Positions 8,578-15,043 of a stretch of DNA of 64,000 bases are shown one piece after another. Position numbers and translations under genes: made by a program. The notes beneath the pieces were generated by a model. It ran no database searches. It had not been told where the DNA came from and saw nothing but the letters and a program-made list of their open reading frames with translations. Every line of letters starts with the position of its first letter. Position 1 is the first letter of the stretch. This stretch comes from an uncultured Chloroflexia bacterium (GTDB lineage Bacteria > Chloroflexota > Limnocylindria > Limnocylindrales > CSP1-4). The stretch spans positions 186,791 through 250,790 of the forward strand of contig CAVQIZ010000002.1 of the NCBI GenBank assembly GCA_963712735.1, in the 5' to 3' direction.

Positions 8578-9565
8578 ATGAGCACGCCCGCAGCCACCGC
8601 TCCGGACGCCGTCTCGGAAGACACGCGCCTGATGCTTCGGGCCGCGCAGCTCTACTACCACGGCGAGCTCACGCAGGACGCCATCGGCAAGCGCCTCGGC
8701 GTGAGCCGCTTCAAGGTCGGCCGACTGCTGGAGCGTGCCCTGCGCGAGGAGGCGGTGAGGATCGAGATCGTCCACCCGGCGTCACGACTGGTGGCCCTGG
8801 AAGACGCGCTCCGCGAACGCTTCGGCCTCGGCGAAGCCATCGTGGTGGACGTGCCCGCCGGAGGCGACCAGGCCGAAGACGAGCAGCTGGCGCGTGAGCG
8901 CGTCGCGGCCGCGGCCGCCGACCACCTGGCATTCGTCCGGCCGCAGGGCGTCATCGGCGTCTCCTGGGGTCGCACCATGCTGGAGCTGGCAGCCCGCCTG
9001 CAGCCGGGCTGGACGCAGGCCAGCCAGATCGTGCAGCTCAACGGCGCCATCTCGCGCTCGGCGCAGCCCACCCGCTACCAGGACGTGGTGGAGCGCTTCG
9101 GCAGCACCACCGGTGCCGGCATCCAGCTGATGCCGGCGCCGGCGATCGTCGGCAGCGCCGAGCTGCGGCGCGCGCTGGAGGCCGACCCGGCCGTCAGCCA
9201 GCCGTTGAAGGCCGCCCGCCGCGCCCCCACGGCCATCTTCGGCATGGGCGTCATGGGGCCCGAGAGCGTGCACGTGGCCTCCGGCTATCTCGATGCCAAG
9301 GCCCTCCGGCGGCTCGAGCGGGCCGGCGCCGTGGGCGACGTGCTGGGCCGCTTCATCACCATCGAGGGGCGCATCGCCCTGCGCGGTCTCGATGCACGCA
9401 CCGTCGGGCATGCCCCTCGACGAGCTGCAGGGCAAGCGGCTCACGCTGGGCCTGGCTGCCGGTCCCGGGCGCGGACCCATCGCCCTGGCCGCGCTGCGCG
9501 CAGGCTGCATGAACACCTTCGTGACTGACGAAGCCACGGCCGAGTGGGTGCTCGAGCATGACTGA
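8578..9565 (+). CDS. SorC/DeoR-family sugar-binding transcriptional regulator (frameshift near 9410)
   Basis: HTH LTQDAIGKRLGVSRFKVGRLLERA plus SorC sugar-binding domain (GVSWGRT...GMGV...); C-terminal 45 aa (MPLDELQGKRLTLGLAAGPGRG...[15 protein letters not shown]) lie in the +1 frame. Confidence 0.75.
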
Positions 9566-10140
9566 CCAGCGCAGCCCTTCGGCCGATGAGGTGCGGGCGC
9601 TGGTGCGCCGCATCGTCGATCAGACGCTCGAGACGAGCGCGCAGCCAACGCCAGCCGCACGACGGCCGGGTGGTGGTGGCCATCGCCGGCGACCACGGAG
9701 GCTGGCGCATGAAGGACGCCATCGGCAGCTGGCTCACGGAGCACGGCTACGGGGTGCGGGACTGCGGCACGGATAGTGACGAGGCCGTGGACTACCCCGA
9801 CTACGCGCTGGCGGTGGCCCGGCTGGTGGCCGATGGTTCGTGTCGCTGGGGCATCGTCGTCGACGGCGCCGGTATCGGCTCGGCCATGGCGGCCACCAAG
9901 GTGCCCGGGGTGCGTGCCGCCAACTGCCACGACCTCTCCTCGGCGCGCAACAGCCGCGAGCACAACTACGCCAACGTCCTCACCCTGGGCGCCGGCTTCC
10001 TGGGCACGGCCCTGGCCCTCCAGATCGTGGAGACCTGGCTGGCGACCGACTGGGGTGCCGAACGACACGGCGCCCGCGTAGACAAGATCACCGCCATCGA
10101 GCGCTCCTACAGCGGCGCCAGCGAGGGAAAGGACCGATGA
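9558..10140 (+). CDS. rpiB: ribose-5-phosphate isomerase B-family (RpiB/LacAB) enzyme with N-terminal encapsulation-peptide-like extension (frameshift ~9660)
   Basis: ATG 9558 overlaps the sorC stop; [34 protein letters not shown] (amphipathic helix + linker) in one frame, then [33 protein letters not shown]...ANCHD (RpiB core) in the next; shift inside GGTGGTGGTGG. Confidence 0.75.
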
Positions 10141-11024
10141 CCGACACCATCGACAATCGCGACGCACTCGTGGAGGCCATCACGCGCGAGGTGCTCGCCG
10201 CACTCGGCTCCGGCAGCCCGGCGGCCGATCCGAGCGACCCCTGCGCCGGCTGCCTGCAGAGCTGCGCGGCGCAGTGCGCCACCAAGGTGCGCTCGCTGAT
10301 GGCCGGCGGTGCCGACCGCATCGAGTACCACGGGCCGGCCAACGAGGTGCCGCTCGACCTCGCGCGCTACATCGACCACACGCTGCTGCGACCCGATGCC
10401 TCCGCGGCAGACATCGACAAGCTCTGTGACGAGGCCGCCGAGTACCACTTCGCCTCGGTCTGCGTGAACCCGACCTGGGTGCGGCGCGCTGCCACCCGCC
10501 TGCGCGACACCGATGTCGCGGTGGCGTCGGTCATCGGCTTCCCCTTCGGCGCCACGCCCTCCGATGTGAAGGCCTTCGAGGCTCGACGCGCCGTGCGCGA
10601 CGGCGCCCGCGAGATCGACATGGTCATCAACATCGGCGCGCTCAAGAGCGGCGACCACGACCTGGTGCGGCGCGACATCGCCCGCGTCTCGGACGCCTGC
10701 CACGAGGCCGGCGCCATCAACAAGGTCATCATCGAGACGGCGCTGCTGAGCGACGCCGAGAAGATCATCGCCTCGCGCCTCGCCGTCGAGGCCAGGGCGG
10801 ACATGGTCAAGACGTCCACCGGCTACGCCAAGGGCGGAGCCACCATCTACGACGTCGCGCTCATGCGCGAGACGGTCGGGCCCAAGCTGGGCGTCAAGGC
10901 GGCCGGCGGCATCCGCACGGCCGAGGATGTACAGGAGATGATCGCCGCCGGCGCCACCCGCATCGGTGCCTCGGCCGGCGTCACCATCGTCAGCGGACAG
11001 GGAGGCGCCAGTGGCCAGTATTGA
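10137..11024 (+). CDS. deoC: deoxyribose-phosphate aldolase (DeoC) with ~70-aa N-terminal extension (encapsulation-peptide-like helix + Cys-rich segment)
   Basis: ATGA overlap with rpiB; [50 protein letters not shown]... then DeoC core [14 protein letters not shown]...VIGFPFG...MVKTSTGY...KAAGGIRT (Schiff-base lysine region). Confidence 0.85.
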
Positions 11025-11637
11025 GCTCCGGGCATATTCATTCATCGACAGCCTGCAGGCCCAGTACGCGGCCTTCCTGGGCACCGTCGCGCAGGGCTTC
11101 CTGCCCCTCGCCGGCGACGCCTCGCTGTCGATCGAGATCTCGCCCGGCATCGAGATCAACCGCCTCACCGACGTGGCCCTCAAGTCCACGCAGGTGAAGC
11201 CGGGCATGCAGATCATCGAGCGCTACTACGGCATGCTGGAGGTCCACTCCCCCAGCCAGGCGGAGGTGCGCGCCGCCGGCGCTGCCATCCTCGCCGAGAT
11301 GGGCCTGACGGAGACCGACCGCATCAAGCCGCGGGTGCTCTCGTCGCAGATCATCCGCCGCATCGACGACCACCAGGCGCAGCTCATCAACCGTACCCGG
11401 CACGGGCAGATGCTCATCCCGGGTCAGACGCTGTACGTGCTGGAGATGGAGCCCGCGGCCTACGCCGCCCTGGCCGCCAACGAGGCCGAGAAGGCAGCGG
11501 ACATCAACATCCTCGAAGTGCGCAACTTCGGCTCCATGGGCCGCATCTACCTCGGTGGCGAGGAGCGCGACATCGACGTCGGCTGGCGCGCCGCGCTGGC
11601 CGCGGTCGAGGGGCTGGAGGGTCGCGAGGCGAAGTAG
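11011..11637 (+). CDS. divergent tandem BMC-domain shell protein (BMC-T-like)
   Basis: GTG 11011 after GGAGG. Two halves each align to the PduA fold: ...[34 protein letters not shown]...[10 protein letters not shown] and [61 protein letters not shown]. Confidence 0.5.
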
Positions 11638-11703
11638 CAGCGGCCGATCGGGCAGCACACCAGAGAGACGAGTCAGACAGGCAACGCAAGGGAGAACGAA
11701 GAG

Positions 11704-13861: not shown

Positions 13862-14475
13862 TGCCGATCGCCCGCGGCCGACTCCCCTCCCGCCATCGAG
13901 CCGGCGCTGGGGCTGCTCGAGCTGGAGACGGTGCCGGCCGGCATCGCCGCCGGCGACGCCATGGCCAAGCGCGCACCCATCGAGCTCATCCGGGCCGGTA
14001 CCGTGCACCCGGGCAAGTTCCTCGTGCTCGTGGCCGGCGCGGTGGCCGATGTCGAGGAGGCCCTCGCAGGCCGGCCGCGAGAGCGGCGGCCTGGCCGTGC
14101 GCGACGTGGTCTTCCTGCCCCACATCCACGCCGACGTGGTGGCGGGCGTGCGCGGACGGCGCCTGGCGGCCGGGACCGAGGCGCTGGGCATCATCGAGAC
14201 GGCCACCATCCCGGCCATCATCCGTGCCGCCGATGCGGGGGTGAAGGGCGCGCAGGTGCAGGCTGCTGGAGCTGCGGCTGGCGGATGACCTCGGCGGCAA
14301 GGGCTACCTGCTCTTCGACGGCGCCGTCTCCGAGGTGGAGGCGGCCGTCGAGCTGGGCCTGGCCGCGGTGGGCGAGGCGCGCGGCCTCAGCGCACGCGTC
14401 ATCGCGCAGCTGCACGCCGAGATGGCGGAGAACCTCGCCGCCGACGCCCGCTTCGCCGCGCGAGTCGGGGCGTAG
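13861..14475 (+). CDS. tandem-BMC-domain shell protein (PduT-like BMC-T), frame broken 2-3 times
   Basis: Domain 1 ALGLLELETVPAGIAAGDAMAKRAPIELIRAGTVHPGKFLVLVAGAVADVEEAL (frame 2), linker/second-domain start in frame 0 (EALGIIETATIPAIIRAADAGVKGAQVQ), C-terminus LLELRLADDLGGKGYLLFDGAVSEVEAAVELG... in frame 1 ending TAG 14475; likely start GTG 13861 overlapping aldDH stop needs one more shift. Confidence 0.65.
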
Positions 14476-14479
14476 TCCG

Positions 14480-14771
14480 ATGCAGCTCGCACGCGTGACC
14501 GGCACGGTCGTCGCCAGCACCAAGGTGGCGGGGCTCGAGGGCGTCAAGCTGCTCATCATCCAGCCGCTCGACCGCGCCCTGCGGCCCGGCCGGCAAGCCG
14601 GTCGTGGCAGCTGACGCGGTGCACATGGCCGGCCCCGGTGAGCTGGTCTACTTCGTGGCCTCGCGGGAGGCGGCACAGGCGCTCGAGGAGACGTTCGTGC
14701 CGGTGGACCACGCCATCGTCGGCATCGTCGACGCGGTCACGGAGCTGCCCGCTGCGGAGGACGGCGCGTGA
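14480..14771 (+). CDS. BMC-P vertex protein (EutN/PduN family), copy 2, frameshift ~14590
   Basis: [36 protein letters not shown] then (frame 0) GKPVVAADAVHMAGPGELVYFVASREAAQALEETFVPVDHAIVGIVDAV...; stop TGA 14769..14771. Confidence 0.75.
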
Positions 14772-15043
14772 AGCTCGCGCGGGTGGTGGGCAACGTCGTC
14801 TCCACCATCAACACGCCGGACTTCGAGGACCGCACCCTGCTGCTGTGCGACCTGCTCGGCCCGGACGGTGCTCCGGCCGGCGGCTACCAGATCGCGGTCG
14901 ACAACATCGGCGCGGGCGCCGGCGAGATGGTGCTGCTGCTCGACGAGGGCAACGGCGCGCGCCAGGTGCTGAACGCCCCGGGCGCGCCCATCCGCACGGT
15001 CGTCATCGGCATCGTCGACGAGGTCATCGAAGACGCGCGCTGA
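14768..15043 (+). CDS. BMC-P vertex protein (EutN/PduN family), copy 3
   Basis: GTGA overlap with previous gene; MKLARVVGNVVSTINTPDFEDRTLLLCDLL...YQIAVDNIGAGAGEMVLLLDEGNGARQVLN...VVIGIVDEV. Confidence 0.85.
   Translation: MKLARVVGNVVSTINTPDFEDRTLLLCDLLGPDGAPAGGYQIAVDNIGAGAGEMVLLLDEGNGARQVLNAPGAPIRTVVIGIVDEVIEDAR

What the first reader, a model, noticed from the sequence alone, without database searches (positions are those of the whole stretch)
8578..15043. Metabolosome core appears incomplete: no phosphotransacylase (PduL), no alcohol dehydrogenase, no acetate kinase
Canonical aldehyde-processing BMCs recycle CoA (PduL/Pta) and NAD+ (alcohol dehydrogenase) inside the lumen. Neither function is encoded in the operon nor anywhere else in this 64-kb window; the operon is bounded by the regulator on one side and a convergent P-type ATPase on the other. 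Either cofactors cross the shell (note the PduT-like BMC-T), or the recycling enzymes are encoded elsewhere, or the chemistry differs from the Pdu/Eut paradigm.
Basis: inference. Interest (0 to 1): 0.55.

Follow-up and report, generated by a model that had tools for sequence, protein, structure and literature searches.

The report
SPU3 microcompartment operon, minimal enzyme set
The operon encodes a sugar-phosphate (deoxyribose-5-phosphate) utilising bacterial microcompartment of the catalogued SPU3 subtype; its lack of phosphotransacylase, alcohol dehydrogenase and acetate kinase is real but is the published normal composition of this subtype, not a new anomaly.

Summary
The operon at 8578-15043 encodes a SorC-type regulator, an RpiB-like protein, a DeoC aldolase (DERA), an acylating aldehyde dehydrogenase and six shell proteins. 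The shell set is a CcmP-like BMC-Tdp, one BMC-H, a PduT-like BMC-Ts and three BMC-P. No PduL/PTAC, Pta, acetate kinase, Fe- or Zn-alcohol dehydrogenase or PduS was found anywhere in the 64 kb, by Pfam scans and by six-frame tblastn.

This is not new. The locus matches the SPU3 subtype of Sutter et al. 2021 point by point. Axen et al. 2014 already called SPU loci "metabolosomes with an incomplete core". Dwyer et al. 2024 noted that SPU loci without PTAC typically carry a BMC-Tdp, and proposed that acetyl-CoA leaves through its gated pore.

The same nine-gene cassette, with no room for another gene, occurs in 45 loci across at least five phyla. None has a conserved recycling enzyme nearby. The more plausible cofactor conduit is therefore the CcmP-like trimer at 11011-11637, not the PduT-like protein, which lacks the Fe-S cysteine.

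The many frame breaks in the window are single-base insertion errors. A 96 %-identical relative has every comparable gene intact. A genome-wide search for satellite genes could not be done. Interest is low.

The parts
8578..9565 (+). SorC/DeoR-type transcriptional regulator (HTH + sugar-binding domain), first gene of the operon; one spurious inserted base at about 9406
   Evidence: Pfam Sugar-bind E 4e-52. Intact 328-aa orthologue in L001. Insertion mapped.
9558..10140 (+). RpiB-like protein with an N-terminal amphipathic extension (encapsulation-peptide-like, about 40 aa); catalytic Cys replaced by Asp; inserted base at about 9659
   Evidence: Pfam LacAB_rpiB E 3e-48, with the domain starting at residue 42. 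Alignment to C. thermocellum RpiB shows GIVICGTG versus GIVVDGAG.
10137..11024 (+). Deoxyribose-5-phosphate aldolase (DERA/DeoC), the signature enzyme, with an N-terminal extension of about 75 aa (amphipathic helix, then CxxCxxxCxxxC)
   Evidence: Pfam DeoC E 2e-21, with the domain starting at residue 78. A 100 %-identical protein is in the public collection. Invariant Cys36/39/43/47.
11011..11637 (+). CcmP-like double-stacking tandem shell protein (BMC-Tdp), the candidate gated pore for large metabolites and cofactors
   Evidence: phmmer E 3.9e-86 to CcmP 4HT5 over the full length; the IIERYYG pore motif aligns with FIERLYG. Orthologues carry the label PF27545 CsoS1D_N.
11704..12018 (+). BMC-H hexamer shell protein (single copy)
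   Evidence: Pfam BMC E 1e-30
12088..12375 (+). BMC-P pentamer shell protein 1
   Evidence: Pfam EutN_CcmL E 1e-28
12406..13861 (+). CoA-acylating aldehyde dehydrogenase (EutE-like) with an N-terminal encapsulation-peptide-like helix; inserted base at about 12783
   Evidence: Pfam Aldedh. tblastn with E. coli EutE gives 52 % identity, E 7e-110. Intact 484-aa orthologue in L001.
13861..14475 (+). PduT-like tandem shell protein (BMC-Ts) without the pore cysteine; three inserted bases (about 13866, 14067, 14258)
   Evidence: Pfam BMC x2. E 3e-30 to PduT 3PAC; PduT TICPGKF aligns with TVHPGKF. Insertions mapped.
14480..14771 (+). BMC-P pentamer shell protein 2 (one frame break around 14600)
   Evidence: Intact orthologue in L002.
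14768..15043 (+). BMC-P pentamer shell protein 3, last gene of the operon
   Evidence: Pfam EutN_CcmL E 2e-22

Best explanation
This is an SPU3-type sugar-phosphate-utilising bacterial microcompartment operon from a high-GC Chloroflexota MAG.

Shown:
- It encodes only three cargo proteins: DERA, a catalytically altered RpiB-like partner and an EutE-like acylating aldehyde dehydrogenase. All three carry N-terminal extensions that resemble encapsulation peptides.
- It encodes a full shell set: one BMC-H, three BMC-P, one Cys-less BMC-Ts and one CcmP-like BMC-Tdp.
- A SorC/DeoR-type regulator is the first gene.

Inferred from family knowledge and from Dwyer 2024:
- Deoxyribose 5-phosphate enters the shell. 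DERA splits it into glyceraldehyde 3-phosphate and acetaldehyde.
- The AldDH converts acetaldehyde + CoA + NAD+ to acetyl-CoA + NADH, so the volatile and toxic aldehyde is confined.
- No internal CoA or NAD+ recycling is encoded. Acetyl-CoA/CoA, and by extension NADH/NAD+, would be exchanged with the cytosol through the gated pore of about 14 A in the stacked CcmP-like trimer. Published work proposes the pore route only for acetyl-CoA; extending it to NAD(H) is my inference. Acetyl-CoA is then used by central metabolism, and NADH by whatever cytosolic or respiratory route the cell has.

The absence of PTAC, AlcDH and AckA is thus the normal design of this subtype, not a defect.
For: - Composition.
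- Point-by-point match to the published SPU3 description. Enzymes are only AldDH + pfam01791 + pfam02502. EPs sit on the N-termini of AldDH and DERA. There is one BMC-H, a BMC-P triplet and a CcmP-like Tdp. The Ts has no PduS partner and no pore Cys. Satellite loci are uncommon. Chloroflexi is among the listed phyla.
- Absence in the window.
- Four relatives with intact genes (96 % to about 82 % nucleotide identity) have the same ten genes and nothing else BMC-related within +-10 kb.
- Forty-five colinear RpiB-DERA-Tdp-H-P-AldDH-Ts-P-P cassettes were found: 20 Chloroflexota, 17 Actinomycetota, 4 Acidobacteriota, 1 Pseudomonadota, 1 Planctomycetota and 2 unclassified. Forty-one span only 5.2-5.8 kb.
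- No flanking gene family is shared by more than 11 of the 45 loci. Representatives of the 11 largest clusters, read by eye, include none that looks like a recycling enzyme.
- Among all 84 related loci (80 genome loci plus L001-L004), tblastn with Pta, EutD, AckA, EutG and PduL found a single Pta, 10 kb away in one Blastocatellia locus.
- Literature: loci lacking PTAC typically encode a BMC-Tdp, and acetyl-CoA is proposed to exit through it (Dwyer 2024). All SPU RPIs have Cys66 replaced by Asp.
- The AldDH is 52 % identical to EutE, consistent with acetaldehyde as substrate.
Against: - Nothing here shows that CoA or NAD(H) pass the Tdp pore. That step is a published hypothesis for acetyl-CoA only and is untested.
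- The rest of the source genome could not be searched, so a distal PTAC or AlcDH carrying an encapsulation peptide is not excluded.
- Dwyer 2024 states that a PduS homolog is frequent in all SPU subtypes except SPU6. This sits uneasily with the SPU3 description in Sutter 2021 and with this locus, which has none.
- The role of the RpiB-like protein is unknown.
- The substrate (deoxyribose 5-phosphate) has been shown enzymatically only for an SPU6 DERA, not for SPU3.
Confidence: 0.7

Rival explanations
1. The recycling enzymes exist but are encoded elsewhere in the genome (a PTAC and/or an alcohol dehydrogenase with encapsulation peptides, or housekeeping Pta) and are imported into the compartment. 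The core would then be complete in the cell although not in the operon.
For: The whole genome could not be searched. SPU7 keeps its DERA in a satellite locus, and some BMC types keep core enzymes distally. Published satellite detection relies on neighbouring shell genes, so a lone PTAC with an EP would have been missed. One related locus (L069) has a Pta about 10 kb away.
Against: - The 64-kb window has none.
- The nine-gene cassette recurs unchanged in at least five phyla, with unrelated flanks and no conserved neighbour. This is the pattern of a self-sufficient mobile unit.
- Sutter 2021 reports that satellite loci are uncommon for SPU3.
- PTAC absence correlates with BMC-Tdp presence across SPU subtypes, which suggests a shell-based solution.
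Confidence: 0.15
2. The chemistry differs from the aldehyde-to-acyl-CoA paradigm. Examples: the AldDH acts without net CoA or NAD+ turnover; the compartment runs in the synthetic direction; or the RpiB-like protein and the Cys-rich DERA extension provide another reaction or redox route.
For: The RpiB-like protein has lost its catalytic Cys and has no obvious pathway role (Dwyer 2024). The DERA extension carries four Cys that are invariant within the Chloroflexota clade. The DERA reaction is reversible.
Against: - The AldDH is 52 % identical to the acylating EutE over its catalytic domain.
- The DERA catalytic residues and activity on deoxyribose 5-phosphate were demonstrated for an SPU6 homologue.
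- The Cys motif is lost in many Acidimicrobiia that keep the same cassette, so it cannot be essential to the core chemistry.
Confidence: 0.1
3. The locus is a decaying remnant, and its 'incompleteness' reflects gene loss and pseudogenisation.
For: There are apparent frameshifts in the regulator, RpiB, AldDH, BMC-Ts and one BMC-P.
Against: - The frame breaks that could be compared with the 96 %-identical relative L001 are single-base insertions, and L001 has every one of those genes intact.
- The same kind of break occurs throughout the window, including in the essential gltX, which is split into at least 8 pieces at 39.4-42.7 kb.
- GC3 coding signal is strong in all pieces.
- Gene content is identical to that of intact relatives.
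Confidence: 0.03

Closest known systems
SPU3 subtype of sugar-phosphate-utilising BMC loci (Sutter et al. 2021, Nat Commun 12:3809, Suppl. Data 2; Dwyer et al. 2024, Commun Biol 7:1562)
   Same: The enzyme set (AldDH, pfam01791 DERA, pfam02502 RPI) and the N-terminal EPs on AldDH and DERA. The shell set: one BMC-H, a BMC-P triplet, a CcmP-like BMC-Tdp, and a BMC-Ts without pore Cys and without PduS. There is no PTAC or AlcDH. The host phylum is among those listed.
   Different: Nothing substantive. RPI and DERA are separate genes here, whereas some SPU3 loci have them fused. A SorC-type regulator heads the operon in the Chloroflexota members but was not detected upstream in the Actinomycetota members.
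SPU6 BMC of Chloroflexi bacterium GWB2_54_36 (the only SPU type with biochemical data; Dwyer 2024)
   Same: A DERA with an N-terminal extension; an RpiB-like partner with Cys replaced by Asp; no PTAC; a BMC-Tdp is present; Chloroflexota host.
   Different: SPU6 has a C-terminal EP on an AldDH from a different major branch (31-33 % identity to ours in loci L065/75/78/87). It also has a different gene order, a Tdp from a different clade, no BMC-Ts, and a EutQ-like small protein.
Eut/Pdu metabolosomes of Salmonella and E. coli
   Same: Confinement of an aldehyde by an acylating AldDH (52 % identical to EutE), with BMC-H, BMC-T and BMC-P shell proteins.
   Different: Eut and Pdu recycle CoA internally (EutD/PduL) and NAD+ internally (EutG/PduQ), and encode or use acetate/propionate kinase. 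None of these is present here. Eut and Pdu have no BMC-Tdp.
CcmP/CsoS1D carboxysome shell proteins
   Same: The protein at 11011-11637 aligns over its full length with CcmP (E 4e-86) and keeps the Glu-Arg pore pair.
   Different: It sits in a catabolic aldehyde-processing compartment rather than a carboxysome, so the molecules it passes are presumably different.

Membership tests
SPU3-type BMC locus | DeoC-type aldolase (pfam01791) with an N-terminal extension/EP | tested here: met
   Pfam DeoC with the domain starting at residue 78 of 295. The extension has an amphipathic '[16 protein letters not shown]' helix (read directly from the sequence).
SPU3-type BMC locus | RpiB-type protein (pfam02502) encoded immediately upstream of the aldolase, with catalytic Cys replaced by Asp | tested here: met
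   Pfam LacAB_rpiB. Gene order. Cys-to-Asp substitution.
SPU3-type BMC locus | [quoted passage not shown] | tested here: met
   Aldedh domain preceded by about 43 residues containing '[15 protein letters not shown]'. 52 % identity to E. coli EutE. No phylogenetic tree was built.
SPU3-type BMC locus | BMC-Tdp of the CcmP-like clade | tested here: met
   The best PDB matches are CcmP 4HT5 and 5LSR (E about 1e-86), ahead of CsoS1D (E 1.6e-49).
SPU3-type BMC locus | BMC-Ts without a pore cysteine and without a co-occurring PduS homolog | tested here: met
   PduT Cys38 aligns to His. No Complex1_51K, RnfC_N or SLBB hits in the window.
SPU3-type BMC locus | Single BMC-H plus a triplet of BMC-P, two of them adjacent at the end of the locus | tested here: met
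   The colour-clade assignment of the three BMC-P was not tested.
SPU3-type BMC locus | No PTAC, AlcDH or TPI in the locus | tested here: met
Canonical complete-core metabolosome (Pdu/Eut paradigm) | Encapsulated phosphotransacylase (PduL pfam06130 or Pta pfam01515) for CoA recycling | tested here: not met
   None in the operon or the window. The rest of the genome is not testable with these tools.
Canonical complete-core metabolosome (Pdu/Eut paradigm) | Encapsulated alcohol dehydrogenase (pfam00465) for NAD+ recycling | tested here: not met
   No Fe-ADH or Zn-ADH in the window. The EutG probe gave a best E of 0.06.
PduT (Fe-S-carrying BMC-Ts) | Pore cysteine (Cys38) ligating a [4Fe-4S] cluster, usually paired with PduS | tested here: not met
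   His at the aligned position; no PduS. The protein is PduT-like in fold only.
Functional deoxyribose-5-phosphate-degrading compartment | DERA activity on deoxyribose 5-phosphate and physical encapsulation of the cargo | not testable with these tools
   Shown only for an SPU6 DERA in vitro (Dwyer 2024).

The most novel reading that the evidence does not exclude
SPU3 compartments may work with no internal cofactor recycling at all. Acetyl-CoA/CoA and NADH/NAD+ would be exchanged stoichiometrically through the CcmP-like airlock trimer. If so, this compact nine-gene cassette, transferred unchanged between at least five phyla, would be the simplest natural system for measuring cofactor traffic across a BMC shell. 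A more speculative add-on concerns the CxxCxxxCxxxC motif in the DERA N-terminal linker, which is invariant in the Chloroflexota clade. It might bind a metal or Fe-S centre that contributes to assembly or to redox balance inside the lumen.
Probability: 0.3. Interest if true: 0.5.

Novelty: new member of a known kind. Interest (0 to 1): 0.2.

Why it matters
How metabolosomes that lack PTAC and AlcDH obtain fresh CoA and NAD+ is a real open question, flagged in 2014 and still hypothetical in 2024. This locus does not reveal that question. It is one more example of a catalogued subtype.

Its practical value is modest. It shows that the minimal SPU3 cassette is very compact (about 5.3 kb without the regulator) and colinear across phyla. 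It always pairs the absence of recycling enzymes with a CcmP-like gated trimer. That makes it a good minimal construct for permeability experiments or for synthetic-biology shells that must pass cofactors.

Tried and rejected
1. Reading the frame breaks as pseudogenisation. Rejected: the breaks that could be compared with a 96 %-identical relative are single-base insertions, that relative's genes are intact, and similar breaks occur window-wide.

2. The PduT-like protein as an electron or cofactor conduit. Rejected as an Fe-S route: Cys38 is His and there is no PduS.

3. SPU6 assignment, tempting because the host is Chloroflexota. Rejected: the AldDH EP is N-terminal, the Tdp is CcmP-like, and the gene order differs.

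4. SPU2 assignment. Rejected: it has an extra green-clade BMC-P, 80 % of its Ts keep the pore Cys, and its host phyla differ.

5. A search for a conserved flanking gene that could be a hidden recycling enzyme. ORFs from the flanks of 45 loci were clustered, and nothing was shared by more than 11 loci.

6. Apparently 'expanded' cassettes. These turned out to be a second housekeeping DERA downstream (L015, L018, L023) or an unrelated response-regulator/ParA-like insertion (L072).

7. The promoter/terminator scan was uninformative.

8. Look-up of the source contig by exact protein (P0001) failed, so the source record was never identified.

9. The supplementary tables of Dwyer 2024 are not held.

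10. A genome-wide search for satellite genes was not possible.

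
Full report
**What is there**

The window is 70 % G+C. Genes were located by third-position GC and ORF reading.

On the + strand between 8578 and 15043 lie ten genes. After repair of frame breaks by eye, Pfam identifies them as follows:
- a SorC-type regulator (Sugar-bind, E 4e-52);
- an RpiB-like protein (LacAB_rpiB, domain starting at residue 42);
- a DeoC aldolase (domain starting at residue 78);
- a 208-aa protein with a sub-threshold BMC hit;
- a BMC-H;
- a BMC-P;
- an aldehyde dehydrogenase (domain preceded by about 43 residues);
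- a tandem-BMC protein;
- two more BMC-P.

The sub-threshold protein is a CcmP-like double-stacking trimer. It aligns over its full length with CcmP (PDB 4HT5, E 3.9e-86) and keeps the Glu-Arg pore pair. The tandem-BMC protein resembles PduT (E 3e-30) but has His where PduT has its [4Fe-4S] ligand Cys38. The RpiB-like protein has Asp in place of the catalytic Cys. The aldehyde dehydrogenase is 52 % identical to E. coli EutE.

Upstream, on the opposite strand, is a chromate transporter gene. Downstream is a convergent P-type ATPase.

**Is the absence real?**

Yes, for the window.
- GC3-selected coding segments of the remaining about 57 kb were concatenated and scanned against Pfam. No PTA_PTB, PTAC (PF06130), Acetate_kinase, Fe-ADH, Zn-ADH or PduS-type domain appeared.
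- These segments covered 92 % of the window before shadow ORFs were filtered out. The P-type ATPase and the S9 peptidase were not scanned. They were identified from the Pfam labels of their orthologues.
- The only dehydrogenase-like gene is an SDR at about 44.8-45.5 kb, unrelated to the operon.
- Independently of my gene calls, six-frame tblastn of the whole window was run with E. coli AckA, Pta, EutD, EutG, EutQ and EutP and a PduL probe. The best hit was E = 0.06. The EutE control scored E 7e-110.
It was then checked against Pfam and matches PF06130 at 244 bits.

**The frame breaks are artefacts**

A relative that is 96 % identical at the DNA level (L001, an ENA metagenome contig) has all the comparable genes intact. 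Relative to it, the window has single extra bases at 7830, 9406, 9659, 12783, 13866, 14067 and 14258.

Similar breaks occur throughout the window. For example, gltX is split into at least eight pieces. This is assembly noise, probably from long reads, not decay of the operon.

**What it is**

DERA homologues at 74-100 % identity all come from metagenomes, and the few that carry a source name are labelled Chloroflexota. The nearest genome records are 'uncultured Chloroflexia' MAGs.

The literature settles the classification.
- Axen et al. [quoted passage not shown] - Sutter et al. 2021 split SPU into seven subtypes. Their SPU3 description (Suppl. Data 2) matches this locus in every respect:
  - the enzymes are only AldDH, pfam01791 and pfam02502;
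  - N-terminal EPs sit on AldDH and the aldolase;
  - there is one BMC-H and a BMC-P triplet;
  - the BMC-Tdp is CcmP-like;
  - the BMC-Ts has 'no cysteine in the pore' and no co-occurring PduS;
  - satellite loci are uncommon;
  - hosts include Chloroflexi, Actinobacteria, Acidobacteria, Planctomycetes and Proteobacteria.
- Dwyer et al. 2024 report that PTAC occurs only in SPU1/4/7, and that loci lacking PTAC typically encode a BMC-Tdp. They propose that acetyl-CoA leaves through its large gated pore. They also report that all SPU RPIs carry the Cys-to-Asp change.

**Comparative evidence gathered here**

Four relatives fetched by exact DERA protein have the same ten genes and nothing else BMC-related within +-10 kb.

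A scan of one genome per species returned 80 loci. Mapping the ten window proteins onto these and the four relatives shows 45 complete, colinear RpiB-DERA-Tdp-H-P-AldDH-Ts-P-P cassettes. By phylum they are 20 Chloroflexota, 17 Actinomycetota, 4 Acidobacteriota, 1 Pseudomonadota, 1 Planctomycetota and 2 unclassified. The phylum labels are my reading of the record titles. Forty-one of the cassettes span only 5.2-5.8 kb, which leaves no room for another gene.

Clustering all flanking ORFs found no family shared by more than 11 of the 45 loci. Read by eye, representatives of the 11 largest clusters include no recognisable recycling enzyme. Probes for Pta, EutD, AckA, EutG and PduL hit only one Pta, 10 kb from the cassette in a single Blastocatellia locus.

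A cassette that moves between phyla unchanged, into unrelated neighbourhoods, is most simply read as functionally self-sufficient.

**Mechanism**

Shown: the gene set, the N-terminal extensions, the shell composition and the absence of recycling enzymes locally.

Inferred:
- The EutE-like AldDH traps acetaldehyde as acetyl-CoA and makes NADH.
- Cofactors exchange with the cytosol through the CcmP-like trimer. Published work proposes this route only for acetyl-CoA. Extending it to NAD(H) is my inference.
- From my own knowledge, not checked here: work on Salmonella PduQ and PduL mutants indicated that some cofactor exchange across Pdu shells occurs, which makes the idea plausible.
- The SorC regulator belongs to the family of B. 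subtilis DeoR, whose inducer is deoxyribose 5-phosphate. This is also my knowledge and was not tested.

**Rivals**
- Distal EP-bearing recycling enzymes remain possible, because the genome could not be searched (0.15).
- Different chemistry is unlikely given the EutE similarity (0.1).
- Pseudogenisation is essentially excluded (0.03).

**Verdict**

The open question it touches has been stated in print since 2014. Interest is 0.2. The locus is a new member of a known kind.

Noticed in passing
window 10239-10280 (DERA residues 35-48): The linker between the encapsulation helix and the DERA domain carries four cysteines ([12 protein letters not shown], i.e. CxxCxxxCxxxC). They are invariant in 20 Chloroflexota homologues. 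In other phyla with the same cassette the motif varies (for example CxCxxxCxxxC in Pyrinomonadaceae) or is absent (many Acidimicrobiia). It is not mentioned in the main text of Dwyer 2024. It could be a metal or Fe-S site or a disulfide module.
   Followed up: partly
whole window; e.g. 7830, 9406, 9659, 12783, 13866, 14067, 14258; gltX 39420-42695 (- strand): Single-base insertions relative to a 96 %-identical relative break most of the compared genes into two or more frames. The essential gltX is in at least 8 pieces. This is assembly error (nearest relatives are long-contig 'MFD' MAGs), so any gene-level annotation of this record will be fragmented.
   Followed up: yes
window 62666-63103 (+): A second RpiB without an N-terminal extension. 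It has 'GGSGTGEQ' where the BMC copy has 'VDGAGIGS'. This resembles, from memory, the Glu-type active site of Mycobacterium tuberculosis RpiB. It is presumably the housekeeping isomerase, which underlines that the BMC copy is specialised or non-catalytic.
   Followed up: partly
window 17959-39092: A dense phosphate/polyphosphate neighbourhood lies next to the BMC operon: Ppx/GppA (17959-18928, -), PPK2 (25018-25905), PPK1 (26438-28549), CYTH and CHAD proteins (28603-30190), pstSCAB-phoU (30946-35656), a low-molecular-weight phosphatase and a SixA-like phosphatase, and a histidine kinase/response regulator pair (36732-39092, -). Ppx also sits near the cassette in relatives L002-L004. A link between DNA scavenging and phosphate acquisition is conceivable but untested.
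   Followed up: no
window 21550-24861 (-): An arginine deiminase pathway cluster (arginine deiminase, ornithine carbamoyltransferase, carbamate kinase). Carbamate kinase is the only small-molecule kinase of this kind in the window, and it is not an acetate kinase.
   Followed up: no
L015 15063-15755, L018 16185-16832, L023 16195-16869: Three Chloroflexota relatives carry a second DERA (43-45 % identical), presumably housekeeping, within 2 kb downstream of the cassette. The window has none.
   Followed up: no
window 14648-15148 (- strand): The P-type ATPase ORF runs about 165 codons past the point where its 908-aa orthologue ends, and so overlaps the last two BMC-P genes in antisense. This is probably a lost stop codon or a frame error near its 3' end, not a real extension.
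   Followed up: no
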